64,000 bases of DNA from a virus (Duplodnaviria > Caudoviricetes), in the IMG/VR virus record IMGVR_UViG_3300027986_000001, positions 35,897-99,896 of that record; one strand, given 5' to 3'. The notes beneath the pieces are model-generated. The model was not told the origin of the DNA. It saw only the letters and a program-made list of their open reading frames with translations, and made no database searches. Shown one piece after another: positions 6,798 to 39,439 of this stretch (within the stretch, counting starts at the first letter, position 1; the number at the start of each line of letters is the position of its first letter). The translations under genes and the position numbers were made by a program.

Positions 6798-7439
6798 GTG
6801 CCTACTGTAACGTTGGCCAATTTGGAGCAGCAAGTTTGGGATAGGTTGGACTCAAATTCAAATTGGTACCCCGAACTCAACGTCCGCTACGCGCTAAATG
6901 AGGGCCTCAAGAAATCCAACCTGATCGTTGGTTGGAACCAAGCCACCATCAACGTCTCTGGAAACTCCGTAGCAAACCAGTATCTCTATTCCACGCCGAT
7001 CGGAATCGTCGTGCCGATGCGGGTTGAGTTCGCGGGCCGTGAGTTGAATCCGGTCGGGCTCAAGAGCCTAACTCGCAAGTACCGCAACTGGATCAGTGAC
7101 ACCAGCAACCTTATCGGGCCAGTTAAGTATTGGAGCCGAATTGGAATTTCCCAGTTTCTGCTCTATCCGGCGGACTCTATCGGGGGTAGTGTGGTCGCGG
7201 TAACTGGGATCGCGCCCGTGCCGATGTTAGTGAATCAGGGGGATGTAGTCGATCTGGAAAATCACTGGACGCAGTTGGTGGTTAAGTACGCTGCGGCTCG
7301 ATGCCAACTGAAAGATTCGGGGGCCACCTTCTCTATGGCGCAGGGCATCATGAAGCAGGTTATGATTGACCTGAAATTGATGAGCGTATGGAAGAGCATG
7401 GAGTTCCCGCAGGAGTTCGCGCTAAGAGAGGGTCGCTAG
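6798..7439 (+). CDS. Putative head-tail adaptor protein
   Basis: TLANLEQQVWDRLD..W...ALNEG, YSTP..VEFAG and LVVKYAAAR pattern of podoviral adaptors. Confidence 0.65.
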   Translation: MPTVTLANLEQQVWDRLDSNSNWYPELNVRYALNEGLKKSNLIVGWNQATINVSGNSVANQYLYSTPIGIVVPMRVEFAGRELNPVGLKSLTRKYRNWISDTSNLIGPVKYWSRIGISQFLLYPADSIGGSVVAVTGIAPVPMLVNQGDVVDLENHWTQLVVKYAAARCQLKDSGATFSMAQGIMKQVMIDLKLMSVWKSMEFPQEFALREGR

Positions 7440-8153
7440 ATGGCCTTGCCTGTAACGGATATTTATAACCAGTTTTGTTACGACGTTGCGGAAGACTACG
7501 GAAACGGCGCGGGACCGGGGCTCTCCTTGGGCCTGCTCACATTTCAGCAGTGGATCGACCTCCTGAACGAGGTTCTCGTGGACTTCATGAAGCGGACCGG
7601 GCTTGTGAAGCAAATCTATACCCAGGAGATCGTTCAAGGGCAGAACCAGTATACGGTTCCTGACACGATGGCGCTCGTCGAAGCCGCCTACGTCGGCGGC
7701 GTATATCTGGAACAGAGCACAACGGAGGATCTGTACTGCCGCTTCAAGAACTGGAAGGTCTTCCAGGACGTTCCGCAGGCGTGGCACGACGATTCTATTC
7801 CGATAAAGACGGTCGAACTCGCTCCAGTGCCTAGTTTTTCTTCGCCCGCATTCACGCCGCAGTCGGGGGATTGGGCGGTTACGATCGGCGTAACACTGAC
7901 CCCGGCAGGAATAGCCAGAGGGCTAACCTTAGTCGGAACTTTGCTGCCAACTACGTTAACGGCCCTAGGGCAGAGCCTGCCTATTCCTGACGAATTCGCG
8001 CTGACGGCGATAAACTACGGAGTGTTAGCCCGCGTGTATTCCGGTGATAATGAACTGGCAGATCCTGACAAAGCCGCGTTCTGCCTTCAGGAGTATGAGA
8101 ACATGGTAGCCCTCGGGGCCGCCATCGCCAGCGAACTGAACGAAAGCGAGTGA
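7440..8153 (+). CDS. Putative head-tail adaptor protein (paralogue of previous gene)
   Basis: LLNEVLVDFMKRT, GQNQYTVPD, IPDEF..AINYGVLARVY; same architecture as 6798 ORF. Confidence 0.65.
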   Translation: MALPVTDIYNQFCYDVAEDYGNGAGPGLSLGLLTFQQWIDLLNEVLVDFMKRTGLVKQIYTQEIVQGQNQYTVPDTMALVEAAYVGGVYLEQSTTEDLYCRFKNWKVFQDVPQAWHDDSIPIKTVELAPVPSFSSPAFTPQSGDWAVTIGVTLTPAGIARGLTLVGTLLPTTLTALGQSLPIPDEFALTAINYGVLARVYSGDNELADPDKAAFCLQEYENMVALGAAIASELNESE

Positions 8154-9280: not shown

Positions 9281-9521
9281 TCGGAGCCTCCGTGAAATCC
9301 ACGTAGTAGGACTTTCCAAGTTCCAACTGCTTCCATGCTTCGGGGTTGAGAATGCCAATGTTGATCTGCCCATTCGGCGTCCAGCGAAAGAACTTCTTGT
9401 TTTCCTCGCTGCCATCCGAAACGGCAATCATCTTGATGGATCGTAGTTCCTCAGAATCGGGATTGCGCGTATCACTCTTGCGGGTCTCGTAGCTTTCGAC
9501 TACAAACTTTGCTCGTACCAT
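9267..9521 (-). CDS. Conserved phage hypothetical protein
   Basis: MVRAKF..ENKKFFRWTPNG..YYVDFT family motif; SD GGAG before ATG 9521. Confidence 0.7.
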   Translation of the reverse strand: MVRAKFVVESYETRKSDTRNPDSEELRSIKMIAVSDGSEENKKFFRWTPNGQINIGILNPEAWKQLELGKSYYVDFTEAPSASA

Positions 9522-9618
9522 TGTTGTTCTCCATAGGATCGGTCGCTGGGTCATTTCATCCCGGTGCCGCCTATGTAGAGAATAACACGCGGCATTGCTA
9601 CCATATCGCTGAGATCCA

Positions 9619-12600
9619 ATGGCCGAGAAGAGTTTCCCTTTTATACATCGCGGAATTATCACCAGGACGACCACCTCGGAGCTTCCGCAGGGGGCAACTC
9701 AGTCCGAAGCCAATTGCGAATCACTCCAAGAAGGCAGCATCTGTTCCCGCGCGGGCATCCAGAGTCTTGGCAGCTCCTCTGGTCTAAACAGCCCTAGTGT
9801 TCGAAAATTCCGCATCGGCGCAACCGATTCGACAAACCCGCGCTACGTGCTGTCTGCGGCAGGCGGCAGCGGCATGAACCTGTACCGCACGGCTGCGCTG
9901 AACTTCTCCGCCCTGACCAATATTGCCTCGAACGTCAGCAGCACATCCCTGAAGGCCCAGCGGTTCAATCTGGCCTCTTACTCAGCGGGTACTTCGGGCC
10001 AACTGTGGGCCTTCATTTCTACTCCCCTGGCTATGCTCAAAGACCCCTCCCCTGGTACTAGTACCCCGCAGAACTGGGGAATCCTACCGGCCACGGGCGT
10101 TGCGCAGGCGTCGGCCTCGGGGACCGGAGTTCTGGATGGAGGTGCGTCGGGCAGTCCGAGCGGCTCATCGCCCTACGATTACATCTACTGCTACCGGAAC
10201 AAGACCACAGGCAACCAGGGAAACCCGTCGCAAACCATGCTTACGGTCAGTAATGCGACCAACGGGACGCCCGTAGCGGTTCACCTGCAGCAAATCACGG
10301 TCACGGTCTGGGGGTCCGGGGATGCTCAAATATCCGGCTCTGGCTCCATAGCGATCTACCGGCGCGGCGGCATCTTTACGGATGGTTTGTACCGCTTTGT
10401 TGGATATGCCACCAATCCGGGATCGGCAACATCCACGACGTTCGTGGATAACGCCTCGGATGTTTCGATTGAGCTCAATCCAACGGTCGAATTCGATAAC
10501 GATCCGCCGGTGCCCAGCGGCCTACAGAACCCCTATACCGGAGCCATACAAGCCAATAGCAGCGCCGGGTTCCAGACCGTCACCCTTAGCCCCGCCCTGC
10601 CCTCTGGGCTCACTCCGGGCAGCACAATGTTCTGTGTGGGAAACAAGGCTATCGAGACGGTGATTATTCTCTCGGTCGTCTCCAGTACACAGGTAGAAGC
10701 CTACTTCCAGTTGAACCACACGTCGGGCGAGATCTTCACAATTGACACGATCTGTAATCAGGCGCTGCCGTATTCGGTCTCGGCCTTCGACTCCATCTTC
10801 CTGGCTGGCGATCCGAACAACCCGCACATACTGTACAAATCCAAGACCGGGATGCCTGAATCGTTCCCGATCGAGGAAGCGGACGGCATCGCTGACGCCA
10901 TTATTGTGGGAAGCCCGGCTAACCCGATCCAGAACATCTGCGAGTTTCGCGACATGGTGGTGTCGTTAAACCTAAACTCGCTCTACGTGGTGCCCGTCAT
11001 CAGCGGCCAAATGCTCGCGCCATCGGAAGTTTCGCAGGGGCACGGGCTTCTCGATCCGTGGGCTTGGTGCAAGTCGGATAACGCTATCTGGTACCTGAGC
11101 AACGACGGCATCTATGAGTTTGACGGAAACAGCTCGCGTAAAATCTCCGAAGCGATCGACCAGCTATTCGTTGGAAGATCGCTTGGTAACTTGCCGCCGA
11201 TCAATTTCAATCCCACGACAACTCTGCCAATCTTCCGGCTGGAGTACTATCACCAGGAAATTTGGTTCTCCTACTTTGCCGTTGGCTTCGGGCAGATCTG
11301 TCTGCGCTATCAGGCTCTGTACAATCGCTGGATCATAGCGGAATTCAACGGCGGCGTGTCCGACCTATGGTTCGAGCCGGACACGGGGAATCTGATGGTC
11401 GCCGGGTTGCTAGGGGGCAACGCCTCCTTTGCCTTCGCCGACAAAGACGGAACCTCGGGGACGACGGATTACTGGAGCACGAACGGGACGGATGGGCAGG
11501 CGATTCCGGCGCAGTTTAAGACGGGATTCTTCTACCTGGATAGTCCGGCGGTGGACAAGCTATTCCAGGACATCATTCTGGAGTTGGATGCGCCTGCTCC
11601 GACTTCAACATCTAGCTATGTGACGGTCAGCGTCTACTACGACTTCAGCTCTACGGCAGCGGACACATTCACTCTGTCGGACAACGCAACAGCAGGGGTA
11701 ACGGGGCGGCACAGGGTGTCCCTGATGAATGCTCTGAGCGGCGGCGTGGGGCAGGGCGTAGAAGCCTATGCTGTTGCGTTCGAATTCATCGTTACCTGTA
11801 AGCAGCGGGTCACCTTTTACTCGCTGACCTTCCAATACGAAATCCTGGCTGAAGCGCAATCTGGCAAGCCGGGCCTGTGGCAAAATCTCGGCCATCCGTA
11901 CGATAAGCGACTACAAGAAGTCACAATCGAATATTCGAACTACGGATTCACAACGCTGACGGCCTACGTGGATATCATGTCGGGCATCAATAGCTTGACC
12001 GAGACAACGCAGATTGCATCAGCGGTTTTGGCTCCAACCCCCGCAGGAACGCGCGCCCTAGCTACGATCCCACTAGCCGACATCATTTGTAAGCTGTGCC
12101 GCATCACATACAAAAACAACGAAGGCGCGGCGGTTGTCATCAACGAGAGCAATGTCCTGCGGGTGTACGGAGACCCTAAGTGGTCCGCCGTGAACGATCC
12201 TCCGGATATTTTGGAGCAGACGCAATGGCGCGCGTACGGCCCATGTGAAAGCATTGCGCGTCAGGTGCGCTTGGCGATCGACACCGGAGGAGTTAACTGC
12301 ACCGTCGCCCTGCAAGGGGACGGCACTACCCAACAGTCGTTCACCGTCAACGCCACGGACTCCGACAGGAAGCGGTTTTTTTCAACCAATTCAAACCTGA
12401 TCTGTCGAATGTGGCGCTACACGTTCACCCCCGGATCGGGAGGCAAGGCCAAGGTATTCGAGAATGAACTAGACGCAATCCCGGAGCCGTGTCCTATAAC
12501 CTCAGTTTGGGACAGCTATGAGTTGGTCTTTTCCTACCAGGGATGGAAGGCGATCAAAATTCTCAACCTGCAATGGATTTGCGCCGCTAGCTCAACGCTC

Positions 12601-12867
12601 TCTATTTACCGCGAGGGGGATGCTCTGTTCTATGCAATAACCCTCCCGCCTCAGAGTACAAGAGATCCGCAAAGGTTTCTATTGCCGAGCCTCAATAGTG
12701 GCGTGCTAAACAAATCCAGATCGTACCGCATGGTGCTCAACGTAACGAGTCCGCTAAAGTTCTACCCTGACGGCTCGCGGATAGAGTGGATCGGGTTCGG
12801 GCTGCCGCGCCATCGTGCGCTGCAGCAACAGAAGCTATCGGAGCTTCTATCTCCTATGGCTGGTTAA
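9619..12867 (+). CDS. Tail nozzle / DNA-stabilisation-like virion protein
   Basis: 1082 aa; beta-propeller-like segments (IWYLSNDGIYEFDG, RKISEAI) typical of podoviral nozzle proteins; follows adaptors. Confidence 0.65.
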   Translation: MAEKSFPFIHRGIITRTTTSELPQGATQSEANCESLQEGSICSRAGIQSLGSSSGLNSPSVRKFRIGATDSTNPRYVLSAAGGSGMNLYRTAALNFSALTNIASNVSSTSLKAQRFNLASYSAGTSGQLWAFISTPLAMLKDPSPGTSTPQNWGILPATGVAQASASGTGVLDGGASGSPSGSSPYDYIYCYRNKTTGNQGNPSQTMLTVSNATNGTPVAVHLQQITVTVWGSGDAQISGSGSIAIYRRGGIFTDGLYRFVGYATNPGSATSTTFVDNASDVSIELNPTVEFDNDPPVPSGLQNPYTGAIQANSSAGFQTVTLSPALPSGLTPGSTMFCVGNKAIETVIILSVVSSTQVEAYFQLNHTSGEIFTIDTICNQALPYSVSAFDSIFLAGDPNNPHILYKSKTGMPESFPIEEADGIADAIIVGSPANPIQNICEFRDMVVSLNLNSLYVVPVISGQMLAPSEVSQGHGLLDPWAWCKSDNAIWYLSNDGIYEFDGNSSRKISEAIDQLFVGRSLGNLPPINFNPTTTLPIFRLEYYHQEIWFSYFAVGFGQICLRYQALYNRWIIAEFNGGVSDLWFEPDTGNLMVAGLLGGNASFAFADKDGTSGTTDYWSTNGTDGQAIPAQFKTGFFYLDSPAVDKLFQDIILELDAPAPTSTSSYVTVSVYYDFSSTAADTFTLSDNATAGVTGRHRVSLMNALSGGVGQGVEAYAVAFEFIVTCKQRVTFYSLTFQYEILAEAQSGKPGLWQNLGHPYDKRLQEVTIEYSNYGFTTLTAYVDIMSGINSLTETTQIASAVLAPTPAGTRALATIPLADIICKLCRITYKNNEGAAVVINESNVLRVYGDPKWSAVNDPPDILEQTQWRAYGPCESIARQVRLAIDTGGVNCTVALQGDGTTQQSFTVNATDSDRKRFFSTNSNLICRMWRYTFTPGSGGKAKVFENELDAIPEPCPITSVWDSYELVFSYQGWKAIKILNLQWICAASSTLSIYREGDALFYAITLPPQSTRDPQRFLLPSLNSGVLNKSRSYRMVLNVTSPLKFYPDGSRIEWIGFGLPRHRALQQQKLSELLSPMAG

Positions 12868-13364
12868 ATATGTCTCCAGATGCGCCTGGATATTATCATA
12901 GAGATCAGGGATGGGGTGACGCGAAAACGCTTGGCAATGTGCTCCATGTCAAGGCTTCCACTTGCATGGATATTGCGTATCTGGCGTACCTTCTCATCAC
13001 TCAACTTGGCCCAATAGTTATTGGACCCCTGGTTTATCCTCCCCTTTCTGGAGGCATCGCGCATATTATCTAGCTGGTCTCCCTTGAACAGATGCTTACC
13101 GTTGCAGCAAGCAGGGAAATCGCAAGAATGAAGCACGCTAAGAGGATAAGCGTCTTCGCCATGAGTAACCCTAAACGCTATTCGACTGGCAAGCCAGCAG
13201 CGGTTGTTTGGCTTGCCAAGCATGAACTGCCCATACCCTGTCTTGTTTCGGGATGCTTTCCACGGCCAGCACTCGTCCGGGCCGCGCACGTCTACGTGGG
13301 ACCAGAATCGTTCTATGTCCCTATCGGACAGTGATGGGATTGGGATAGGATATCTTAGAGCCAT
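12864..13364 (-). CDS. HNH homing endonuclease with C-terminal HTH
   Basis: RFWSHVD..CWPW..GYG..VLHSCDFPACCNGKHLFKG..DNMRD; antisense insertion in the late operon. Confidence 0.9.
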   Translation of the reverse strand: MALRYPIPIPSLSDRDIERFWSHVDVRGPDECWPWKASRNKTGYGQFMLGKPNNRCWLASRIAFRVTHGEDAYPLSVLHSCDFPACCNGKHLFKGDQLDNMRDASRKGRINQGSNNYWAKLSDEKVRQIRNIHASGSLDMEHIAKRFRVTPSLISMIISRRIWRHI

Positions 13365-13454: not shown

Positions 13455-14000
13455 ATGGCTACCGCCAAAAATGCGATAACCAAACAGCAGCAAGCCGTGC
13501 CTCAATTGAAAGCCTCCGATTTCGAAGGCAACTGCGCTCGGGTGAATCATGTAATTCGAATCATTTGGGGCAAGGCGGTTTCCGCCGCCAATGCCGCCGC
13601 TGGCGCAACCGGCGCTCAAGGTCCAGCGGGGCCAGCCGGAGCGCCGGGAGGGCTGGGAACATACACCCAGATCACTCCCAGTGGAACCACGGCCACGCCC
13701 AGCCTGAGCGGAGGAAGTTGGAGCGTAACCGAAGTCCTCCTAAATAATTCTTCTCCTATCACGATCCAGAACGTGACCGGCGGCTCTACGTGCATGTTCT
13801 GGGTGCTCGTGCTTAAGCAGGACGCGACTGGGGGAAGGCAGGTAGCCTTCCCGGCCAGCGGATCTACCTATGCCGGAGTAACCGATCAGGTCGGAGCCTT
13901 AGACCAGACAGCCAGTACTTACTCGGTGCTAGTATTCGTAGTGAGGCCGGACGGAAAATCAATGCTATTGGGAGTCCCAATCAGCGGGGAGCCGTACTAA
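13455..14000 (+). CDS. Short tail fibre/spike-associated protein with collagen-like segment
   Basis: GATGAQGPAGPAGAPGG; C-terminal LKQDATGGRQVAFP motif seen in tail-fibre proteins. Confidence 0.6.
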   Translation: MATAKNAITKQQQAVPQLKASDFEGNCARVNHVIRIIWGKAVSAANAAAGATGAQGPAGPAGAPGGLGTYTQITPSGTTATPSLSGGSWSVTEVLLNNSSPITIQNVTGGSTCMFWVLVLKQDATGGRQVAFPASGSTYAGVTDQVGALDQTASTYSVLVFVVRPDGKSMLLGVPISGEPY

Positions 14001-15979
14001 TGGGAAAAGTCATAATTTTGTCCTTGCTTGCGGGCCTAAGCATATCAAATTGCCAGACGGCCCATTTCTCTATCATTGAGGGGAGCGCCACCGGGAACGC
14101 CTTAAATATCAACGGCCCCACGTCGGGCAACGGAGAGGTCGTTCTCAACCCCGGAAACGTAGCGGGGCTGGCCTATGTCTTGGTCAATAACGCCCGCACG
14201 GACCAGCCATCTCTGATTGTGTCCCAGCAAAGGGCGGGGAATATAACCTCGGCGGCGGTATTTGAAATCTTCGACAGTTCGGGAGATCCGGTGTTCGCAG
14301 TTGCGGGTTCTGGAGCCCCTGGTTGGCCCACTGGTCCAGGACCAAACGGGGTGACGATCGAGGGAGATGTAGTTCCCGCGACCGATAACACCTTCAATTT
14401 GGGACATGACACGGGCACCTCCAGCGGGAACTTTGGGTGGCTGAACATCATCGGGCACAATCATTCCTGGATAGCGGGTGATGGAACTGTGACGGCGATC
14501 AAGTCGCCAGCCACCGGGGCCAATCTGTTTCTCGTTCTTCCAAATGCTGCCCCTTCTGCGGTAGGCAATGCGCTAGTGGTGAATAACATTGCCGGGAGTA
14601 CGTACACGCTTGCGTGGGGTGGCGCTAGCGGATGCCCAGGAGGCTCAACGACAGAGATCCAATACAACAACGGATCAGGTGGATGCTCCGGAGACGCCGA
14701 TCTGCTTTGGGACCCTACGGCCAAGGCTTTGCTGTTAACGGAGAAATCCGGCGGAAGTACTGGCAGGGACATCCAGTTAGCCGCTGGGGGGACTGGTGAG
14801 GTCTTTGGGGTGAATGGATCAGCCGCGTCAGTACTGCCAGGAGCAATATTCAGTCTTGGAGGCATTGTCCCGGAAGCGGACGATGCAGCTACTGTGGGGG
14901 CTGGATCGGGAGCCTTCAAGCAATCGTATACGTACGATACCTACGCCCAGAGGCAGTTTATCTGCCCAACGGGAAGTAACTTTTCATCCATCGGCGTAAA
15001 CTCCTGCCCGTATTTAGGTACCGTGGGTACGGCATTTCTAAATATCAACACAAGCCTAGCATCGGGAAATCCTCCGTTCGTTCAGTTCGTTGCGAACTCT
15101 TTAACTTCTCAGTTCTATGCGCAGTTCAACGGAGCGGTGATTCCGAACGTAAATAACCACTTTTCTCTGGGTACAGGTAGCTTTGTCTGGAGCAATACTT
15201 TCACTGAGACGCTGACAAACGTAGGGGGATCGACTTCAATCAACGGCCTGACCTACAACTGGCCCAACGCACAAGCGGCAGGGTATTTTCACAATGACGG
15301 CAGCGGAAATATCAGCTTCACCGCGAGCGCTGGCGGGGTGAGCAGCCTCGATGGCCTTACGGGTGCTCTGAATCTGGCGGGGGCAGGCGGAATCTCGATC
15401 AGCCAAGTTGGCAGCACTATAACCATTACCGGGCCTGGAGGCGGCGTAGTGAATTCGCTCAACTCCCTCACAGGTGCGCTCAGTATAGTTGGGACACCTA
15501 ATGAGATCTCAGTAACCCCGAGCGGCAGCTCTATTACGCTGGCTACGCCTCAAGTCATTTGCACCACCTGCGCGGTAACCTTCGACAATATAACAGGCAC
15601 AACGTTGGGGACTTTTGGGCGCATAAACGTGGGCTCGAATATCAGCATATTGGCCAGTGGCATCATCAACACATTTCAGCTTACGGCTGCCGGATTCGTG
15701 AACGCAGGGGACTTATCAGTGACTGGCCCCGGAACCTCAGCCACCATTTCCAGTTCGGCTGCCGTGGCCTTACAGGTCACTGGTGGGGCTACGTTCGGAG
15801 GCGGGGCGGCTGGCATAGGCAGCAGCGGAGTAGCGGCTCCGTGCAGCCCGCCCAGCGTCACGTATTTCGCGGCAGGGGCTGCCGGACAGAGTGTAACGCG
15901 CACCGTACGTAATTCGGCGGGTACCGGCACTTGCACTATTATCTACACGTGTGGGATAGAGACAGGAGGGACGTGTTGA
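14000..15979 (+). CDS. Tail fibre-like protein with N-terminal signal peptide
   Basis: VPATDNTFNLG-type repeats, PGGSTTEIQYNNG, GVSSLDGLTGAL shaft motifs; MGKVIILSLLAGLSISNC-Q leader. Confidence 0.7.
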   Translation: MGKVIILSLLAGLSISNCQTAHFSIIEGSATGNALNINGPTSGNGEVVLNPGNVAGLAYVLVNNARTDQPSLIVSQQRAGNITSAAVFEIFDSSGDPVFAVAGSGAPGWPTGPGPNGVTIEGDVVPATDNTFNLGHDTGTSSGNFGWLNIIGHNHSWIAGDGTVTAIKSPATGANLFLVLPNAAPSAVGNALVVNNIAGSTYTLAWGGASGCPGGSTTEIQYNNGSGGCSGDADLLWDPTAKALLLTEKSGGSTGRDIQLAAGGTGEVFGVNGSAASVLPGAIFSLGGIVPEADDAATVGAGSGAFKQSYTYDTYAQRQFICPTGSNFSSIGVNSCPYLGTVGTAFLNINTSLASGNPPFVQFVANSLTSQFYAQFNGAVIPNVNNHFSLGTGSFVWSNTFTETLTNVGGSTSINGLTYNWPNAQAAGYFHNDGSGNISFTASAGGVSSLDGLTGALNLAGAGGISISQVGSTITITGPGGGVVNSLNSLTGALSIVGTPNEISVTPSGSSITLATPQVICTTCAVTFDNITGTTLGTFGRINVGSNISILASGIINTFQLTAAGFVNAGDLSVTGPGTSATISSSAAVALQVTGGATFGGGAAGIGSSGVAAPCSPPSVTYFAAGAAGQSVTRTVRNSAGTGTCTIIYTCGIETGGTC

Positions 15980-15980
15980 C

Positions 15981-16334
15981 ATGAAGAGAGCTATTTGGTT
16001 TTTGGCTGTTGCGACTATGCTTCGCGCCGAGGAGGTGAAGCCCACTCCGCCGGTAGAAACCACTTCCGAGGAGAACGCTATCCTCTACAAGATTGTCGCC
16101 GAGGTTAAGCTCTTGCAGGAGTACCAGAAAGAAGTCGCTCAGCAGCTATCCGAAAAGCAGAAGGAATGGGACGAGGAGCAGGCGGTAATCTTTGCGAGAG
16201 TCGGCAAGAAGGCGGACGAGGTTCAGCTTCAGGAAGATCCCAAATCCAAACCCCGCCCACACTGGGTAGTGGCCCAAATACCGCCTAAGCCAGAACCCCA
16301 AAAGGCCGCCCCTCCCGCTAGTGGAAATCGGTGA
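15981..16334 (+). CDS. Exported coiled-coil protein (possible fibre chaperone)
   Basis: SD AGGAGG; signal peptide MKRAIWFLAVATMLRA; heptad-like EQK-rich core; directly follows the fibre gene. Confidence 0.6.
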   Translation: MKRAIWFLAVATMLRAEEVKPTPPVETTSEENAILYKIVAEVKLLQEYQKEVAQQLSEKQKEWDEEQAVIFARVGKKADEVQLQEDPKSKPRPHWVVAQIPPKPEPQKAAPPASGNR

Positions 16335-16737
16335 TCGTGACCGTGCTCCCAGATGGTACTAACTCGATCGTAACGGCATTTAGGGTAATGTCGTCAAAGT
16401 AAAACATGGCCGTAGGCGGCCACGGAACGTGGATCTTCCCATTGGGATCGAACGGCTGGGTAGCGGGAATTAGCTGGCTGGCAGACAGGGAAGATCCGCT
16501 TGAATCGGTGTACTGTATCGTGACAAGAAAGTCGGTATCTCCCTTTGGGTCTTGCCTCACCGCTACCTCGACCCTTTGCCGACAAGTCTGCCCCAGGAAT
16601 TCGTACCACGGAGCCAGTTGCTTGCATATTGCTGCGGTGACGTGGCGGACCACGTTTGTGCGGTTAACTTTCTGGCTGTCGGCCTTGGCTGCGATCGGCG
16701 CAAGAACGAATATCAAAACGGCGGCTAGTTGTCTCAT
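16318..16737 (-). CDS. Secreted hypothetical protein (moron-like)
   Basis: Signal peptide MRQLAAVLIFVLAPIAAKA; own promoter and SD AGGAG. Confidence 0.7.
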   Translation of the reverse strand: MRQLAAVLIFVLAPIAAKADSQKVNRTNVVRHVTAAICKQLAPWYEFLGQTCRQRVEVAVRQDPKGDTDFLVTIQYTDSSGSSLSASQLIPATQPFDPNGKIHVPWPPTAMFYFDDITLNAVTIELVPSGSTVTITDFH

Positions 16738-16758
16738 AGTGTTTTCTCCTTCGGCCCG

Positions 16759-16795
16759 ATGATGACCGAGAGCGGATCTGAAGTCAAGAGTTTTG
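16759..16795 (-). promoter_or_regulatory. Phage leftward promoter (CAAAACTCTTGACT-17-CATCAT)
   Basis: Shared extended -35 motif, 17-nt spacer. Confidence 0.65.
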
Positions 16796-16850
16796 CTTCA
16801 GGCGGAAAGCACTTGCCGATCTAAGCCCAACTCTCTAAACTCGTTAAGCG

Positions 16851-17423
16851 ATGGCGGCGGCGATTCAAATCAACGCACTACAAAAGCAACTCTTTCTCCG
16901 CAATAGCGTAGAGGACGATGTGCTGGCCGAATTCTACCTGCGCATGAAAGATGAGCGTCTCTTACATTGGCTCTATTACCAAACGGTTCCCACGCTGGGC
17001 GAGTTTCTTTCTTCCCATCGAAGGACAGACCTTGTTTACCTCGCTGGGTACGCCAGTAAAATATTAGACTGCTCAGAGCCGGAACTTTGCGGCATGTGCT
17101 GGGCCGAATCGATTCAGCGGCTGCCCGGCCTGTCGAAAGCTCAGGTGGGTATGGCGTACTTCCGTGAGTACCAGCGGGACGACACAGCTCTTGAGCTGGC
17201 AAGAATGTCGGTCGATTTCGCGTTCGATACAGTGCGTCTGGATGTCCTCTTGGGGACGACCCCCGTAAAGAATCGGGCGGCGTGCATTTTCACTGAGCGC
17301 GTCGGATTCCAGCGGATCGGCATAGCGCCGGACTACGTGTCGTTCTGGGGCGAAAGGTCCGCTGCGGTGCTCAGTGTACTCACCAAGGACCACTGGGGGA
17401 AGATACAGAGAGGTCAGGCATGA
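16851..17423 (+). CDS. GNAT-family acetyltransferase-like protein
   Basis: LLGTTPVKNRAACIFTERVGFQRIG motif B; position before ejection genes as in many podoviruses. Confidence 0.75.
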   Translation: MAAAIQINALQKQLFLRNSVEDDVLAEFYLRMKDERLLHWLYYQTVPTLGEFLSSHRRTDLVYLAGYASKILDCSEPELCGMCWAESIQRLPGLSKAQVGMAYFREYQRDDTALELARMSVDFAFDTVRLDVLLGTTPVKNRAACIFTERVGFQRIGIAPDYVSFWGERSAAVLSVLTKDHWGKIQRGQA

Positions 17424-17986
17424 GCGGCCCCGGACAGGCTTACAATAACGCGCAAAACACACAGGCTCAAGTCTCGCAAGAGCAGCTCAATATAGCCGAG
17501 CAGCAGCAGGCACTGCAGCAGCAAAATTACCAGCGCGCGCTTACTCTGGAGCAGCCGCTCATAACACAGCAGACGGCGCTGGCTACCGGATCGCCACAAG
17601 CAGCCCTGCAAGCCGTGTCTCCGCAAGTAGGCCAGATCTCTGCGGGGTTCAACGCCTCAAAAGAAGCAATCATGAACTCCGTTCCCGCCGGACCGGCGCG
17701 GGACTACGCCCTTAGCCAGTTGCCGCTACAGAAAGACACTGCCATTGGCGGCGTGCTTGGCAGCGCGGTGGCGGCTGCCCCCAAAGAGCTAGCCAGTATA
17801 GGCTCCGGGTTTGGCGGACTAAGCCTCCAAGAGTTAGGCGGCGCTTTGTCTGGCCTGAGCGGCGCTGGGACAACATCGGCAAATATCGCGAATCAGAGTA
17901 ACCAAGCCAAGGCAAATCAGCTCGGCTTGTACGGGAGTTTGGCTGGAGCCGCTGGCAATGCTATTGGCGGCGCTGGCTTTCTTTAG
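17420..17986 (+). CDS. Putative DNA-ejection (internal virion) protein
   Basis: Q/A/G-rich with C-terminal Gly-zipper; ATGA overlap with GNAT; possible +1 extension to 18080. Confidence 0.65.
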   Translation: MSGPGQAYNNAQNTQAQVSQEQLNIAEQQQALQQQNYQRALTLEQPLITQQTALATGSPQAALQAVSPQVGQISAGFNASKEAIMNSVPAGPARDYALSQLPLQKDTAIGGVLGSAVAAAPKELASIGSGFGGLSLQELGGALSGLSGAGTTSANIANQSNQAKANQLGLYGSLAGAAGNAIGGAGFL

Positions 17987-18089
17987 CGGCGCTAGCAGTG
18001 GCGGGGGATATATGGGAGGCGAGGAGATGGGGATTACCGGAGGCGCTCCTCCCGGCGCTCTTTCGTCAGCGTTCGGGTAGGCTGGATAA

Positions 18090-19910
18090 ATGGCTGATAG
18101 CTCTCAGAATCGTAGCGTTTTCATGCCGGACCCGGCTTCGGTCACCGAAGGACCTTTCACCCAGGCCCTCCAGCCGCCAGCCCAGCAGCAGCCACAGCCC
18201 GTTCTTGGCGCTGGCGGAGGTAAGGCGCTAGGCGCTGCCTACATCGGCACGCAGTTTCTGCAGGGGTTAGCCCAGTCCCGCATCCGGAATTTTCAGATGC
18301 AGGAGAATGCCAAGATTCAGAAACTCCAGCGGCTGAATTCGTTCATGATGTACATCCAGCAGAATCCTAACCTCTCTCCGGATGACAAGAACAAAGCGCA
18401 GCAGATGTACTTCAAGGCGCTGGGAACGGATATCACAGCAGCAACGGCCAATGGCGGTAAGGGCGGCGGCGACGAAAAGACAGGCGTCCAGCATCACTTC
18501 GCGGACATCATCAAGCAGGTCGCGCTCGGGGCGGTCGGCGGCAAGCTGCCGAAGGGGGTAAAGAACATCAATCCGGATGAGGTGATCGGGCAGATTTCGG
18601 GACTGCTGTTCGATCAGAACGGGAAACCCAAACAGCCGTATAATCCGCAGCAGCAGGGTATTGAGCAGACGGAGCAGGCGCTTGGACGCAAGCTCACGGA
18701 CCAAGAAAAACAGCAACTACTTGGCCTTCCCGGTAATCCTTTCCTGGAAAAGAAGAAGCAGGTCGAGCAGGCTCTTGGTCGCCAACTTGGGAAAGATGAA
18801 GCCGACAAACTGCTAGGGGTTTACGTCGCGCCTTCGGCTCCTCACTGGGCACCATCAATCCCCGGCGATAAAGTTCCCAAGGAAGTCATCGAAGACGCCA
18901 CCAATAACCCAATAGATCGGAGCGCGGGCGCAAGCTACAAGCAAGACACGACCACGGGAAAGTATTACCTCGAACGGGCCAAGGCCGCTGACAAGCAGTG
19001 GAAGCAGACGCCGGATTCCAGTACTGGGTGGGCTCGCGTGTCTTATGACAGCGCGGGGAAAGTGATCTCTCTCGAAAAAGACGTTGCCCCTCCGTCTTAT
19101 CTGACCGGCCAAACCACCACCAGCGTACGCTTCACAACGGATCAATCCGGTAATATCATCGAGGTTCCAGTAACAACCACGCGGAAACCTAACGTTCCCT
19201 CCGCCGCGCCAAGCCCCCAGCCAAAGGCACCCCCTAAGACTGCTACGCCACCGGGAGTTGCCCCCAATGGGGCAGTCTTGCCACCCACTGCCGCTAATGC
19301 CCCGTCTGGAGCAAGGATCGTCGGGCACAAGCCGGTATCTGCCGCGCAAGTTAAGTCCCAGCAGATTGCCTCCGGCGCGCGAGATGCGGGCATTGCGTTG
19401 TCGGAAATGTTGCCCAGGCTCAAGGAAGAGAACCCGGACTATTTTGGAAGATTTGTCGGGCGCACCATGGGGATACAAAAGTTTGCTGGCGTGCAGCCGG
19501 ATTGGGTGGCCGACGTGGAAGCGCAGGCAGGTTCACTCGAAGCCTTTCTTACCGGCGTGCATAATGCTCGTGGTGTGAAGTACGTGGACCATTGGAAGGA
19601 AATTTTAAACAATCCGTACGTGAACCCGGAATACACGGCACGAGTCGCCAAGACCCTGGCTGCGATCGCCGATGGCGTGTACAAGTTTCAACAGAACACG
19701 AACACGCAGAACGAAACGATGGAGCAGGCGATCACACGGATGAAGGCAAGTCCGGAGTACAAAGATCTATTCGCGCCGTTAGATAAAGACCCGGCTCCGG
19801 CCAAGGGCAAGAAAGAAACGGCCCCGTCAAGCAAAAAGCCTCCTGCTGACCAAGATCCCGGCAATCCGCAGTTCTGGATCAAGCAGACGGCTGCGCCGCC
19901 GACACCGTGA
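18090..19910 (+). CDS. Putative DNA-ejection protein
   Basis: 606 aa, Cys-free, helical Q/K/P-rich, duplicated EQALGRxL motif; synteny. Confidence 0.6.
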   Translation: MADSSQNRSVFMPDPASVTEGPFTQALQPPAQQQPQPVLGAGGGKALGAAYIGTQFLQGLAQSRIRNFQMQENAKIQKLQRLNSFMMYIQQNPNLSPDDKNKAQQMYFKALGTDITAATANGGKGGGDEKTGVQHHFADIIKQVALGAVGGKLPKGVKNINPDEVIGQISGLLFDQNGKPKQPYNPQQQGIEQTEQALGRKLTDQEKQQLLGLPGNPFLEKKKQVEQALGRQLGKDEADKLLGVYVAPSAPHWAPSIPGDKVPKEVIEDATNNPIDRSAGASYKQDTTTGKYYLERAKAADKQWKQTPDSSTGWARVSYDSAGKVISLEKDVAPPSYLTGQTTTSVRFTTDQSGNIIEVPVTTTRKPNVPSAAPSPQPKAPPKTATPPGVAPNGAVLPPTAANAPSGARIVGHKPVSAAQVKSQQIASGARDAGIALSEMLPRLKEENPDYFGRFVGRTMGIQKFAGVQPDWVADVEAQAGSLEAFLTGVHNARGVKYVDHWKEILNNPYVNPEYTARVAKTLAAIADGVYKFQQNTNTQNETMEQAITRMKASPEYKDLFAPLDKDPAPAKGKKETAPSSKKPPADQDPGNPQFWIKQTAAPPTP

Positions 19911-19914
19911 TGCC

Positions 19915-21966
19915 ATGGCCGAAAAACAGCAGCTTGACCTCATTAGCGACTTCCAGAAGGCGATCGGCAAAGAGAAGTTAGATCCGAACACCACGGCGGC
20001 TACGTGGAATGCCTTTGTCGATACGCCTGAAGATCAGTTCGTATCGGTTTTCCATGGCCTCAAGTTGAAGCCGGAAACCAAGGCGGCACTGTGGAAGTTG
20101 CGATTCGGCAAGGAGCAGCAAAAACTAAAGGGGCAACGTTCAACCCCCACGCCTCCCGAAGCGGGAAGGTTCGCCTTGGAACACGCACCGGAGATTGCTG
20201 CGATGGCAGCGGTTCCGTTGACCGGGGGTATGAGCGCAATCCCGGCGGCGGGTTTTGTCGGCCTTATGGGCGGGGCGGGGGAAGCGGCTAAGCAACTAAT
20301 CAAGCGCGGGTTGGGCGATAAGGATGTTCCAGAAACTTCAACCGAAGCCGCCGCGCGTATCGCCAAGGAAGGCGGAATACAGGGAGGCGCGGAACTCGGG
20401 CTACGAGCAATTGCCGCTCCATTAAAGGCCGGGCTCGGCGGGCCGCTGCGTGAGGCCGCAAGGGCAGCAGAGAATAAGCCGATCCTCGAAGCCGCCAAAG
20501 AATACAAGATTCCTTTGCGATCCGGCGAAATTGTGGCTGGCCGCAAAGGCTTGCCCGCACGTCTTGCCCAGGAGATTGGCGCATCGAGCTTGACCGGCAG
20601 GGGCGCTGCGGAAGCATCGCAGGAAAGAATCAGACAGTCTGCAGCGCAAGCCGTAGACTCGATCCTCACAAAGCTAAGCCCTAACGTTACGCCAGCAATA
20701 ACTGGATCGGCGGTACAAGACACCATCAAGCTAAGCAACAATATCTTTGAAAAGACGGCTGAAGATCTGTATCAAAAAGTAGATCAGGTGCTTGGAGGTC
20801 TTGGCATCCAGACGACAGAGACGGCCAAAGAAGCTCAGGCTATCCTCGCTGAATACGCCTCCGGGCCAAGCGCAAAAGGGGTCGGAAAACACTATCCCGC
20901 CAGCACTAAGATTCCCGCCAGAGTCGCCGGGTATCTAGAAGATTTCTCCGCCGTTCCTCCCTCCGGCGTGCCGTTTTCAGTACTACAAGCAAAACGCTCC
21001 GAGATGCTCGGTCTTCTCCGTGATATTAAGGGCGGCAGGGTCCCCACTGAATCAGCCGGTCAGGCTGAGCAGATCCTGTCGCGTCTCGCTAAAAAGGTCA
21101 CCGAGGACATGGAGGATCAGGCGCAGGCCATGGGAATCCAAGCCACGAAGGAGTGGAAGGAGGCCCGGCAATTCTACAAATCTGGCAAGGATCTTATGGA
21201 AGATCCCGCCACCGAGAAATTGCTTAAGCAGCAGAACCCGGAAGACATCGTAAAGCAAATCAGAGGTGGTTCGGTAACGCTTGTCGAGAAACTTAAAAAA
21301 CTCGTGATCGACTACCCCACCAAGTACGGAACGCCGCAAGAAAAACAGGCTGCCATAGCTGCCTGGAATAATCTACGCCAGCAGGTTGTCAGAACTAATA
21401 TCTTGGAAGCCCCGCAAGGCAAGCAATTCGGCATCAGGGATTTGATGGACCTGAAGGAGCGAATCACTGACATGGGGGCTGACGTGAACCGGAAATTATT
21501 CATGGGAGACCCAGAGGGCGAGATTATGTTTCAGAACCTCAACCGCATCGCGGACGTGATGGCTCGAGTAAAGAAGCTGCCGGAAACTAACCGCATGGGT
21601 TACTGGGCTATGATCCGTGGCGGGGCTCTTGTGGGAGGAGTGGGATTAGGACTTACTGGGCATGTGGCGGAAGGCGTAGCAACGATCGGTCTCGAAGAAA
21701 GTATCCCGTACGGGATTTCCCGGATCATTCACAGCCCGGCTGCTACCTCGTATTTTGTTAACGGATTAGCCGCCATGACTCGCGGCAGTTGGCGAGCACC
21801 GGCTGAAACAGTGGTTGGCGCAGTGGCTCCGCGTATTCCTGCCGGGGTCAGCCTAATTGGCCGGGCCTTCAAGATGGCTCACGATGCCGACCAGCAAAAA
21901 AAGACCGCTCCGCCGCCCGTGCCCCTGCCCGAGGTGGGAGAACAGCTTCTGGAGGGAATACATTAG
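19915..21966 (+). CDS. Putative DNA-ejection protein
   Basis: 683 aa helical protein with Gly/Ala hydrophobic segments (PLTGGMSAIPAAGFVGLMGGAGEAAKQ). Confidence 0.65.
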   Translation: MAEKQQLDLISDFQKAIGKEKLDPNTTAATWNAFVDTPEDQFVSVFHGLKLKPETKAALWKLRFGKEQQKLKGQRSTPTPPEAGRFALEHAPEIAAMAAVPLTGGMSAIPAAGFVGLMGGAGEAAKQLIKRGLGDKDVPETSTEAAARIAKEGGIQGGAELGLRAIAAPLKAGLGGPLREAARAAENKPILEAAKEYKIPLRSGEIVAGRKGLPARLAQEIGASSLTGRGAAEASQERIRQSAAQAVDSILTKLSPNVTPAITGSAVQDTIKLSNNIFEKTAEDLYQKVDQVLGGLGIQTTETAKEAQAILAEYASGPSAKGVGKHYPASTKIPARVAGYLEDFSAVPPSGVPFSVLQAKRSEMLGLLRDIKGGRVPTESAGQAEQILSRLAKKVTEDMEDQAQAMGIQATKEWKEARQFYKSGKDLMEDPATEKLLKQQNPEDIVKQIRGGSVTLVEKLKKLVIDYPTKYGTPQEKQAAIAAWNNLRQQVVRTNILEAPQGKQFGIRDLMDLKERITDMGADVNRKLFMGDPEGEIMFQNLNRIADVMARVKKLPETNRMGYWAMIRGGALVGGVGLGLTGHVAEGVATIGLEESIPYGISRIIHSPAATSYFVNGLAAMTRGSWRAPAETVVGAVAPRIPAGVSLIGRAFKMAHDADQQKKTAPPPVPLPEVGEQLLEGIH

Positions 21967-21969
21967 CCA

Positions 21970-26763: not shown

Positions 26764-27222
26764 CTAGGTGAGGAAAAGCGCTCGCTCGGCCTGCCTACGG
26801 GCAAGAAGACCGGGGAATACCTGCCCACCGGCTATATCCCACTTGAGGAATTCGTTAGCGGCGTCCTCCATCCGGCCAAGATTCATCAACTTCAGTAGGG
26901 TAGAAGACGCAAAATGGCCGCTACCCTCGTTGTATACGAAATCACAACAGGCATCGAACTGGTTCTGTGTAATCGGCACATTTATCAGCCGGTTTATGAC
27001 GTGCTCTACGGGAACTATACGGGCCATCAGCAGATCCACCCCTTCGTCGCGAGTGATCGGCTGGATTGTCTGGTAGTGTTCAACCTCGGACGCCGACAAA
27101 TCACAACCGAATCCGATAACCGGATTACCTTCATCCGAGCCGATAGTTGGTAGAAATCCTTCGGCCTGCTCAACGATAGGAATCAGTGAGGCGCTGGCGC
27201 TCATGGGAGGATCGAGGGGCAT
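26764..27222 (-). CDS. Endolysin, lysozyme (GH24)
   Basis: EG..D...IGFG, ITQNQFDA..FVYNEG.G.F..STLLK, GLLARRQAERALF. Confidence 0.92.
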   Translation of the reverse strand: MPLDPPMSASASLIPIVEQAEGFLPTIGSDEGNPVIGFGCDLSASEVEHYQTIQPITRDEGVDLLMARIVPVEHVINRLINVPITQNQFDACCDFVYNEGSGHFASSTLLKLMNLGRMEDAANEFLKWDIAGGQVFPGLLARRQAERALFLT

Positions 27223-39432: not shown

Positions 39433-39439
39433 CGCTTCT

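What the first reader, a model, noticed from the sequence alone, without database searches (positions are those of the whole stretch)
14000..16334. Tail-module fibre and its downstream coiled-coil partner both have signal peptides
Seen: in the canonical podoviral position between nozzle and GNAT/ejection genes, the fibre gene starts MGKVIILSLLAGLSISNC-Q and the next gene starts MKRAIWFLAVATMLRA. The preceding short fibre-like protein (13455) has no leader. Inference: because this locus is embedded in the core tail module, it is the strongest argument that exported proteins are true virion parts. The coiled-coil protein could be a co-exported chaperone and 13455 a cytoplasmically assembled docking adaptor.
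Basis: partly seen in the sequence, partly recalled or inferred. Interest (0 to 1): 0.75.

Follow-up and report, generated by a model that had tools for sequence, protein, structure and literature searches.

The report
Phage tail fibre with secretion signal
In this complete 100-kb short-tailed phage, and in its uncultured relatives, the tail-fibre gene in the usual fibre position and the small helical gene after it both start with conserved bacterial export signals, so the fibre probably folds outside the cytoplasm, a route I found described for no tailed phage; whether that exported protein ends up on the virus particle is untested.

Summary
Gene 14000-15979 (659 aa) and gene 15981-16334 (117 aa) begin with textbook Sec/signal-peptidase-I leaders. 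The upstream gene 13455-14000 has none.

The leaders are conserved:
- All 8 related loci with this fibre type carry one.
- About 48 of the 59 leader-like proteins among the 150 listed profile hits show cleavage before a Gln.
- 34 of 35 strictly called members have an even number of cysteines in the mature part; leaderless relatives split 33 even, 41 odd.

A leaderless relative occupies the same slot (hub, small connector, fibre), and two such relatives start where the predicted mature protein starts. No in-frame internal start could give a leaderless form.

The coiled-coil partner has a leader in 8 of 8 examples and sits in 7 of 8 leader-bearing loci. It is missing from the leaderless locus examined. 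It is not a spanin: short cleavable leader, no lipoprotein partner, endolysin 10 kb away.

The C-terminal domain of 13455 resembles the XD1 connector domain of T4 gp9/gp10 and CBA120 TSP4.

Export is well supported. Virion membership, late docking and a chaperone role are inferred, and the complex prediction gave no verdict. This scan has noted the same phenomenon on other phage DNA before.

The parts
6798..8153 (+). two head-to-tail adaptor genes (6798-7439, 7440-8153), no leaders
   Evidence: Pfam SU10_adaptor, E 1e-7 and 5e-10
9619..12867 (+). tail hub / nozzle-like protein, 1082 aa, no leader, 16 Cys
   Evidence: Position after the adaptors. Weak PHROG virion-protein hit. Fragments of the same gene lie in L001. 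The same slot holds Pfam Phage_stabilise proteins in L004, L093 and L116.
12864..13364 (-). HNH homing-endonuclease-like gene inserted between hub and fibre genes
   Evidence: PHROG endonuclease/HNH families, E 1e-23
13455..14000 (+). leaderless 181-aa fibre-connector-like protein: short collagen-like Gly-x-y run, then a C-terminal beta-sandwich
   Evidence: No hydrophobic N-terminus. Orthologues sit directly upstream of the fibre in L001-L004, L093, L115 and L116, several carrying Pfam Phage_phiTE_241_C. In the AF2 model, residues 70-180 have pLDDT about 65-80. That domain matches CpaA 6o38 (Z 8.6, rmsd 4.7, 99 aligned) and CBA120 TSP4 residues 79-180 (Z 6.6, rmsd 3.5, 95 aligned). It also matches viral tail-fibre models at E about 1e-5.
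14000..14053 (+). Sec/SPI-type signal peptide of the fibre (codons 1-18), predicted cleavage Cys18|Gln19
   Evidence: conserved in homologues
14000..15979 (+). tail-fibre protein, 659 aa; 10 Cys in the mature part
   Evidence: The profile search found 191 relatives, including ordinary leaderless phage fibres. Synteny. Cys counts.
14069..14368 (+). about 100-aa beta-rich module directly after the leader; it recurs 1-3 times per protein in relatives
   Evidence: alignment A7; positions of the best-matching stretches in the profile search
15981..16028 (+). Sec/SPI-type signal peptide of the partner (codons 1-16), predicted cleavage after Ala16
   Evidence: leaders in 8 of 8 examples
15981..16334 (+). 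117-aa exported partner: Pro-rich linker, amphipathic helices, Lys/Pro-rich tail, no Cys
   Evidence: No Pfam or PHROG family.
16318..16737 (-). 139-aa secreted protein gene on the opposite strand; its 3' end overlaps 15981 by 17 nt; 2 Cys
   Evidence: AAGGAG Shine-Dalgarno and a leader with an Ala-Lys-Ala cleavage site. A homologue lies on the + strand after the fibre in L005. A promoter-like site lies at 16787-16759.
16851..17423 (+). GNAT acetyltransferase that closes the fibre cassette
   Evidence: Pfam Acetyltransf_3, E 1e-6; conserved in L001 and L004
17420..23787 (+). four internal/ejection-type protein genes (188, 606, 683, 605 aa), no leaders, no Cys at all
   Evidence: Synteny with L001; the 683-aa protein is 76% identical. 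Cys counts.
26764..27222 (-). endolysin, about 10 kb from the fibre locus
   Evidence: Pfam Phage_lysozyme, E 3e-31

Best explanation
Gene 14000-15979 is this phage's tail fibre, the orthologue of ordinary leaderless podophage fibres in the same slot. It is made as a preprotein with a Sec signal peptide.

Proposed course:
1. The hub and the leaderless 13455 connector are built in the cytoplasm.
2. The fibre is sent through the host Sec translocon and cut by signal peptidase I between Cys18 and Gln19. The new N-terminal Gln may cyclise.
3. Its ten cysteines pair into disulfides in the periplasm.
4. The translationally coupled 15981 product is exported alongside and helps the fibre fold, trimerise or stay soluble.
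5. When lysis breaches the inner membrane, mature fibres meet fibreless particles and dock, probably on the 13455 connector.

Shown from sequence and comparison: the leaders and their conservation, the slot, the orthology with leaderless fibres, the cysteine pairing pattern, and the co-occurrence of the partner.

Inferred: actual export and cleavage (my odds about 0.8) and disulfides.

Speculative: post-export docking on the virion (about 0.4), a chaperone role for 15981, and pyroglutamate.
For: 1. Canonical leaders with strong ribosome sites and coupled starts.

2. Leader kept in every relative of this fibre type whose locus I read: L001, L002, L003, L004, L005, L093 and L115. Of the 150 listed profile hits, 59 have leader-like N-termini. 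Of those, 35 run straight into small-residue|Gln, and I read 13 more by eye as having a polar c-region before Ala|Gln. Gln19 is nearly invariant in a 30-sequence alignment.

3. Cysteine parity. 34 of the 35 strictly called members have an even, non-zero number of Cys in the mature part (binomial p 2e-9). The 91 leaderless hits have 33 even, 41 odd and 17 none (Fisher p 1.6e-8). Cys density is 1.13 against 0.57 per 100 aa. All leader-bearing proteins of this window that I could cut are even too.

4. Same slot with and without leader. L116 has hub, phiTE_241_C protein and a truly leaderless fibre, with an in-frame stop one codon upstream and an AAGGAG site. The leaderless P0090 follows a 162-aa gene with a 4-nt overlap. 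Both start exactly where the mature part of their leader-bearing siblings starts, and both hold 1 Cys against 4-6.

5. No conserved in-frame internal start that could give a leaderless isoform. L004 has none before codon 95.

6. In the complete 49-kb relative G406, every large fibre-like ORF has a leader, so no leaderless fibre candidate is left apart from the hub and small proteins.

7. The partner has a leader in 8 of 8 examples. It is present in 7 of 8 leader-bearing loci and absent from the leaderless locus L116.

8. The C-terminal domain of 13455 matches the structural neighbours that the TSP4-N paper lists for the XD1 connector domain: CpaA 6o38, TSP4 79-180 and StcE 4dny (PMC8825819).
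Against: - No experiment and no trained signal-peptide predictor. Export is inferred from sequence rules.
- Tailed-phage virions are assembled in the cytoplasm in every studied case (established knowledge), so an exported fibre needs an undescribed late-docking step.
- 13455 could itself be the short fibre or receptor binder, which would make the exported protein dispensable for the virion.
- The leaderless hub also has many Cys (16), so Cys richness alone is not tied to export in this phage.
- Even Cys counts can also arise from repeated two-Cys motifs.
- The partner is missing in L004.
- Later checks of similar findings in this scan priced the virion-export reading at 6-30 in 100.
- The phage encodes no DsbA, type-I glutaminyl cyclase or signal peptidase of its own.
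Confidence: 0.4

Rival explanations
1. The fibre-like protein and its partner are exported but are not virion parts. They would act at the envelope of the infected cell. Possible roles are masking or destroying the receptor (superinfection exclusion, or protecting progeny from debris, as T5 Llp does) or adhesion. The virion would bind through the hub and the 13455 short fibre.
For: - Export signals and paired Cys fit any periplasmic or surface protein.
- 13455 has a fibre-like build of its own: a collagen-like run plus a beta-sandwich that matches tail-fibre models.
- Small secreted genes on the opposite strand sit beside the fibre gene here and in L115. That layout recalls receptor-blocking genes next to receptor-binding genes in T5 (from memory).
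- Bdellovibrio MAT fibres show that secreted, phage-fibre-like trimers exist as cell-surface proteins (PMC10769870).
Against: - The gene is translationally coupled inside the late tail operon.
- It occupies the slot that holds a leaderless fibre in L116. P0090 and P0065 start where its mature part starts.
- In G406 all large fibre candidates carry leaders, so the virion would have no long fibre at all.
- The fibre module was found in only 1 of 401 Verrucomicrobiae genomes searched, and weakly. It is therefore not a common cellular surface protein in that class.
Confidence: 0.3
2. Two pools. Most fibre polypeptide escapes Sec targeting late in infection, for example because export is saturated or shut down, and assembles in the cytoplasm with its leader kept or trimmed. 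Only a minor part is exported.
For: It keeps classical cytoplasmic assembly. The leaderless hub also carries many Cys.
Against: - No internal start gives a leaderless form.
- The strong parity of Cys, and its absence in leaderless relatives, argues that the functional form folds in an oxidising compartment.
- Near-invariant Gln at +1 makes sense only if cleavage happens.
Confidence: 0.15
3. The hydrophobic N-terminus is not an export signal. It would be a buried trimerisation helix or an uncleaved membrane anchor that gathers fibre assembly at the inner membrane.
For: AF2 models residues 2-16 as a helix. No trained predictor was run.
Against: - The h-regions are too short to span a membrane. 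From the start of the hydrophobic core to the Gln is 11-15 residues in 33 of the 35 strict cases.
- They are followed by small residues at -3 and -1.
- The segment is absent as a unit from the leaderless homologues P0065 and P0090.
Confidence: 0.08
4. 15981 is an i-spanin or another lysis-related membrane protein that happens to lie in the tail module.
For: N-terminal hydrophobic segment, predicted periplasmic coiled coil and a Pro-rich end.
Against: - 11-residue h-region with a small residue (Ala or Gly) at -1 in all 8 examples, so cleavable rather than anchored.
- The ORF lists down to 50 aa show no lipoprotein gene embedded in or following it on that strand.
- GNAT follows directly in L001 and L002.
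- The endolysin lies at 26764-27222 on the other strand, with a separate lipoprotein gene at 27671-27976.
- It tracks the leader-bearing fibre, not lysis genes.
Confidence: 0.03

Closest known systems
Ordinary leaderless podophage tail fibres in the hub - connector - fibre slot (here L116/P0065 and P0090; in concept T7 gp17, P22-like and SU10-like phages)
   Same: Same module order. Homologous N-terminal module and fibre repeats by profile search. Mature N-termini coincide.
   Different: This fibre has an 18-residue Sec leader, Gln at +1, and twice the Cys density with paired counts.
Bdellovibrio bacteriovorus MAT (mosaic adhesive trimer) fibres, Caulton et al. 2024 (PMC10769870)
   Same: [quoted passage not shown] A weak fold match to the Bd2133 fibre (Z 2.7, rmsd 3.3, 63 aligned).
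   Different: MATs are chromosomal genes of a predator and act on its own surface. Here the gene lies inside a phage tail operon. Pfam found no S74 domain. Homology was not shown.
Signal-peptide proteins of Porphyromonas gingivalis phages that obey the Bacteroidetes Q-rule (Matrishin et al. 2023, PMC10367356; Bochtler et al. 2018, PMC5837995)
   Same: Phage-encoded Sec/SPI substrates predicted to expose an N-terminal Gln.
   Different: Those are genes of unknown function, capsid proteins and spanins, read as envelope modifiers; no tail fibres are named. Here the only host lead is Verrucomicrobiota, not Bacteroidota. A sample of that lineage's own leaders shows small-residue|Gln in only 4 of 29.
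T4 gp9/gp10 and CBA120 TSP4-N XD1 connector domain (PMC8825819)
   Same: The C-terminal beta-sandwich of 13455 matches TSP4 residues 79-180, CpaA 6o38 and StcE 4dny. These are the structural neighbours the paper lists for XD1. XD1 occurs in proteins that hang fibres or spikes on a tail.
   Different: Z is only 6.5-8.6 on a model of moderate confidence. There are no XD2/XD3 docking domains. Binding to the fibre is not shown.
Tail-fibre assembly helpers encoded next to fibre genes (lambda/Mu Tfa, T4 gp38, and the small helical T4 gp57A; from memory)
   Same: Small gene directly downstream of the fibre, co-varying with it. Helical like gp57A.
   Different: No sequence or Pfam similarity. It carries its own export signal, which no known fibre chaperone does to my knowledge.
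Rz-type i-spanins
   Same: N-terminal hydrophobic segment plus periplasmic coiled coil.
   Different: Cleavable short leader, no o-spanin partner, and not in the lysis cassette.

Membership tests
Sec / signal peptidase I (type I) signal peptide - fibre 14000 | basic n-region, uncharged h-region of about 7-15 residues, small uncharged residues at -3 and -1 | tested here: met
   Lys3; 13-residue h-region; Ser at -3; Cys at -1 (Ala or Gly in relatives)
Sec / signal peptidase I (type I) signal peptide - fibre 14000 | score from a trained predictor, and experimental cleavage | not testable with these tools
   No SignalP or DeepTMHMM available; no isolate or proteome
Sec / signal peptidase I (type I) signal peptide - partner 15981 | n/h/c regions with small or aliphatic residues at -3 and -1 | tested here: met
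   Lys-Arg; 11-residue h-region; Leu at -3 and Ala at -1. All 8 examples have an equivalent leader.
Lipoprotein (signal peptidase II) signal | lipobox with Gly/Ala/Ser at -1 and an invariant Cys at +1 | tested here: not met
   Asn precedes Cys18. The Cys is replaced by Ala or Gly in relatives, while the following Gln is kept.
Twin-arginine (Tat) signal | Ser/Thr-Arg-Arg-x-Phe-Leu-Lys motif and a weakly hydrophobic h-region | tested here: not met
   No Arg-Arg in the window leaders; the h-regions are strongly hydrophobic
Phage tail fibre | encoded in the tail module after the hub/nozzle | tested here: met
   Conserved order in 8 loci
Phage tail fibre | sequence relation to known fibre proteins | tested here: met
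   The profile search reaches many leaderless phage-fibre-type proteins. The leaderless P0065 sits in the fibre slot of a podophage tail module. No named Pfam or PHROG family matched.
Phage tail fibre | trimeric fibrous fold | tested here: inconclusive
   AF2 monomer mean pLDDT 53.5. Best fold matches are phage HylP fibres at Z 3.5.
Phage tail fibre | presence in the virion | not testable with these tools
   Uncultured phage; no proteome
i-spanin (Rz-like) | uncleaved N-terminal transmembrane domain | tested here: not met
   11-14-residue h-regions with a cleavage motif; the window, L001 and L003 partners have no TM-length hydrophobic window
i-spanin (Rz-like) | adjacent or embedded o-spanin lipoprotein gene, inside the lysis cassette | tested here: not met
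   None on the + strand at 15981-16850 among ORFs of 50 aa or more. The endolysin is at 26764-27222 on the minus strand.
Tail fibre assembly protein (Tfa / Caudo_TAP type) | sequence match to the family | tested here: not met
   No Pfam or PHROG hit for 15981. Only 6 relatives in 5.8 billion proteins, none named.
Bacteroidetes Q-rule substrates | Gln at +1 after SPI cleavage | tested here: met
   Gln19; about 48 of 59 leader-bearing relatives
Bacteroidetes Q-rule substrates | host in Bacteroidota | tested here: not met
   The flank of the L001 prophage remnant is 94% identical to BipA of Verrucomicrobiae MAGs
XD1-type connector domain (T4 gp9/gp10, CBA120 TSP4) - for 13455 | beta-sandwich fold shared with XD1 | tested here: inconclusive
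   6o38 Z 8.6; 7rej residues 79-180 Z 6.6; 4dny Z 4.6. Model pLDDT is about 65-80 in the domain.
XD1-type connector domain (T4 gp9/gp10, CBA120 TSP4) - for 13455 | binds the neighbouring fibre trimer | not testable with these tools
   The one complex job gave no verdict (see Tried and rejected)

The most novel reading that the evidence does not exclude
A tailed phage builds its particle in two compartments. Head, adaptor, hub and a small connector assemble in the cytoplasm. The receptor-binding fibre is exported by Sec together with a dedicated partner, trimmed to an N-terminal Gln and disulfide-bonded in the periplasm. It snaps onto the finished particle only when lysis merges the compartments. 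The leader would then be a switch that homologous fibres gain or lose together with pairs of cysteines.
Probability: 0.33. Interest if true: 0.85.

Novelty: new variant of a known kind. Interest (0 to 1): 0.62.

Why it matters
Every studied tailed phage folds and mounts its fibres in the cytoplasm. A fibre that must pass through Sec and the host's disulfide machinery would mean several things:
- a new assembly route;
- a new host dependency, which could be a resistance route or a reason why such phages fail in heterologous hosts;
- a practical warning for expressing or engineering receptor-binding proteins of soil phages, which would need periplasmic expression.

This locus is a clean test case. 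The line between leaderless parts (hub, connector) and leader-bearing parts (fibre, partner) falls inside one translationally coupled operon. Natural leaderless orthologues exist for comparison.

If the exported protein is not in the virion, it is still a large, undescribed family of phage-encoded secreted fibre-like proteins.

Tried and rejected
- Complex prediction. Three copies of 13455 (residues 40-181) with three copies of the fibre N-terminus (residues 19-150) scored 0.74, 0.84 and 0.71. One control with an unrelated partner scored 0.61, so the verdict was 'no answer'. It counts neither for nor against docking.
- AF2 monomer of the fibre: mean pLDDT 53.5. The fold search on it gave only Z 3.5 or less. 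The top rows were phage fibres and spikes, but this is not significant.
- Sequence searches of solved structures with the fibre profile and the module profile found nothing meaningful.
- tblastn of fibre and hub against 50,697 deposited phage genomes: no match.
- IMG/VR scans with the hub and with the fibre: no relatives. One relative, L002, came from the internal-protein alignment.
- The module alignment was too diverged to scan genome contigs.
- Lipoprotein reading of the leader's final Cys: rejected, because the Cys is not conserved.
- Internal-start isoform: rejected.
- Inverted repeats around the opposite-strand gene 16318-16737 as a sign of an invertible segment: only short imperfect pairs of chance quality.
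- Phage-encoded DsbA, type-I glutaminyl cyclase and signal peptidase: none found in the complete genome.
- Q at +1 as the host's own habit: a crude scan of about 375 kb of a related Verrucomicrobiae MAG gave small-residue|Gln in 4 of 29 leader-like N-termini. That idea is therefore unsupported, though the method is rough and the host is not certain.
- ESM Atlas look-ups for 15981 and for the 139-aa protein gave only unnamed viral clusters and weak lipocalin-like leads.
- Literature searches found no report of signal peptides on tail fibres.
Full report
**Setting.** The window is bases 35897-99896 of a single 99,896-bp virus record. The record has direct terminal repeats and is rated complete. 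Upstream of the finding lie two SU10-type adaptor genes, a 1082-aa hub/nozzle-like gene and an HNH endonuclease on the opposite strand. The locus itself is:
- 13455-14000 (181 aa);
- 14000-15979 (659 aa);
- 15981-16334 (117 aa);
- a convergent minus-strand gene, 16318-16737 (139 aa);
- a GNAT gene;
- four long genes without family matches that look like internal/ejection proteins.

The endolysin is far away, at 26764-27222 on the minus strand.

**Observation.**
- The fibre start overlaps the upstream stop (TAATG) behind a GGGGAG site.
- The partner starts one base after the fibre stop behind AGGAGG.
- Both N-termini have a basic start and an 11-13-residue uncharged core. Small or aliphatic residues stand at -3 and -1.
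- Neither protein has another membrane-length hydrophobic stretch.
- The 13455 product has no such N-terminus.

No trained predictor was available, so these are rule-based calls.

**Conservation of the fibre leader.** The 5.8-billion-protein word search found one close homologue, at 43% identity. It lies on an ENA contig (L001) where bacterial genes abut a decaying copy of the same tail module. Its leader is nearly the same, but the last residue is Ala, not Cys. The Cys is therefore not a lipobox cysteine, and the cut is placed before the conserved Gln. The two leaders differ by synonymous and conservative changes in frame.

A complete 49-kb temperate relative from IMG/VR (L002 = G406) keeps the gene order and both leaders at about 27% identity.

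An exhaustive profile search of 1.84 billion representatives gave 191 relatives.
- Among the 150 listed, 59 have leader-like N-termini.
- 35 of those run directly into small-residue|Gln.
- I read 13 more by eye as having a polar c-region and then Ala|Gln.
- Gln19 is nearly invariant in a 30-sequence alignment.

**Cysteine parity.** In the 35 strictly called members, the mature part holds an even, non-zero number of cysteines in 34. The 91 leaderless hits have 33 even, 41 odd and 17 none (binomial p 2e-9; Fisher p 1.6e-8). Cys density is doubled in the leader-bearing set.

Within this window, the leader-bearing proteins I could cut have 10, 0, 2, 30 and 26 mature Cys. The four internal proteins have none in 2082 residues.

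This is what periplasmic disulfide formation predicts. The caveats are that repeated two-Cys motifs also give even counts, and that the leaderless hub has 16 Cys.

**The slot and the natural controls.** Contexts fetched for relatives show the same order in different podophage backgrounds, some with P22-type portal and coat: adaptor, hub (some matching Pfam Phage_stabilise), a 144-191-aa leaderless protein (several matching Pfam Phage_phiTE_241_C), then the fibre.
- In L116 the fibre in that slot is truly leaderless. An in-frame stop lies one codon upstream, with an AAGGAG site.
- P0090 is leaderless behind a 162-aa gene with a 4-nt overlap.
- In the alignment, both begin exactly where the mature part of their leader-bearing siblings begins. 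They hold 1 Cys against 4-6.
- One apparent leaderless case, P0047 in L115, turned out to be a miscalled start. An ATG 16 codons upstream supplies a leader ending before Gln.
- No conserved in-frame internal start could make a leaderless isoform.
- In the complete genome G406, every large fibre-like ORF has a leader.

Together these results make 14000 the orthologue of an ordinary tail fibre with a discrete leader added. This is the best available argument that it is a virion part. It is still an argument from homology and synteny.

**The partner 15981.** It has no family match and few, fast-diverging relatives. The same build recurs after the fibre in L001, L002, L003, L005, L093 and L115, and in P0156. 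That build is a leader, a Pro-rich linker, amphipathic helices, a Trp- or Cys-containing turn and a Lys/Pro-rich tail. This makes 8 of 8 examples with a leader, and presence in 7 of 8 leader-bearing loci. It is missing in L004 and in the leaderless locus L116.

It is not a spanin:
- the hydrophobic core is 11-14 residues, with a cleavage site;
- there is no lipoprotein partner gene;
- it is not near the endolysin, which has its own lipoprotein neighbour at 27671-27976.

A helper role in folding or handling the exported fibre is the simplest reading. A loose analogy from memory is the small helical T4 gp57A. Nothing here tests it.

**The connector 13455.** It is leaderless in all loci. It has a short collagen-like run and a C-terminal beta-sandwich modelled at moderate confidence. 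That domain matches CpaA 6o38 (Z 8.6), CBA120 TSP4 residues 79-180 (Z 6.6) and StcE 4dny (Z 4.6). These are neighbours that the TSP4-N paper lists for the XD1 domain shared with T4 gp9 and gp10, proteins that hang fibres on a baseplate (PMC8825819). It also matches predicted viral tail-fibre proteins.

This fits a connector. It equally fits a stand-alone short fibre. The one complex prediction gave no verdict.

**Host and the Gln at +1.** The bacterial flank of L001 carries BipA 94% identical to Verrucomicrobiae MAGs. This is a lead to the host of that remnant only.
- The fibre module was found in 1 of 401 Verrucomicrobiae genomes searched, weakly.
- A rough scan of one such MAG shows Gln after only 4-8 of 29 leader-like N-termini.
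- Two of five related MAGs encode a type-I glutaminyl cyclase.
- The phage encodes none, nor a DsbA or a signal peptidase.

The near-invariant Gln therefore looks like a property of the fibre family rather than a host habit. Why is unexplained. The Q-rule is described only for Bacteroidetes (PMC5837995). Phage genes obeying it were noted in Porphyromonas phages, without any tail part named (PMC10367356).

**Comparison and novelty.** I found no paper describing signal peptides on tail fibres. The nearest known things are:
- the Porphyromonas phage genes above;
- the secreted, phage-fibre-like MAT proteins of Bdellovibrio, which also place a conserved beta-rich domain right after the signal peptide (PMC10769870);
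- XD1-type connectors.

This scan has reported leader-bearing tail proteins on other phage genomes several times. Later checks kept the observation but priced the virion-export reading at 6-30 in 100. None of those notes shares sequence with this fibre.

What this window adds:
- a sharp boundary between leaderless and leader-bearing parts inside one coupled operon;
- leaderless orthologues that start at the predicted cleavage site;
- the parity statistic;
- a co-varying exported partner.

**Verdict.** Observation confirmed. Export of the fibre and its partner is likely, at about 0.8. That the exported fibre is the virion's fibre and docks late is plausible but unproven, at about 0.35-0.4. I class it as a new variant of a known kind, with interest 0.62.

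Noticed in passing
window 16318-16737 (-): A 139-aa secreted protein (leader with an Ala-Lys-Ala site, 2 conserved Cys) is encoded on the opposite strand. It overlaps the end of 15981 by 17 nt and has its own AAGGAG site and a promoter-like site. Its homologue in L005 (2282-2686) lies on the same strand as the fibre. L115 has another opposite-strand secreted gene (9443-9979) beside its fibre. These are candidates for receptor-blocking or exclusion proteins.
   Followed up: partly
L001 6921-8905: The hub gene of the L001 relative is broken into at least three fragments and abuts bacterial genes (BipA, PAS-SpoIIE, prepilin-like proteins). It looks like a decaying prophage remnant in a Verrucomicrobiae chromosome, or else an assembly chimera.
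   Followed up: partly
window 12864-13364 (-): An HNH endonuclease gene sits on the opposite strand between the hub gene and the fibre cassette. A second HNH gene is at 1538-2419.
   Followed up: no
window 17420-23787: The four internal/ejection-type proteins contain no cysteine at all in 2082 residues. The leaderless hub has 16, and the exported proteins have even counts.
   Followed up: partly
fibre family: Gln at +1 is nearly invariant in this fibre family. A sample of the putative host lineage's own leaders shows it in only 4-8 of 29. Leaderless homologues replace it with Met-Ser-Thr. The reason for the Gln is unexplained.
   Followed up: partly
window 27671-27976 (-) and 26764-27222 (-): A 101-aa lipoprotein (lipobox Thr-Ala-Gly-Cys) lies near the endolysin and may be a spanin component. 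No holin was identified.
   Followed up: no
window 48268-48723 (-) and 49588-50397 (+): Two more genes with lipoprotein-like or leader-like N-termini (Ile-Gly-Cys and Phe-Ala-Cys), next to a collagen-repeat protein at 48742-49662 (-).
   Followed up: no
G406 (L090-L092) 14744-22606: In the complete 49-kb relative, a block of four leader-bearing genes (763, about 220, 1406 and 234 aa) sits between the capsid genes and the adaptors. This mirrors the window's three giant leader-bearing genes at 34036-46796.
   Followed up: partly
L116 12852-15353: The phage with a leaderless slot fibre still encodes an 833-aa protein with a leader ending before Gln, 20 Cys and a weak Phage_phiTE_241_C match.
   Followed up: no
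L115 7953-9446: The database start of P0047 is miscalled. An ATG 16 codons upstream, overlapping the previous gene, supplies a canonical leader ending before Gln. Leaderless calls in such families need checking.
   Followed up: yes
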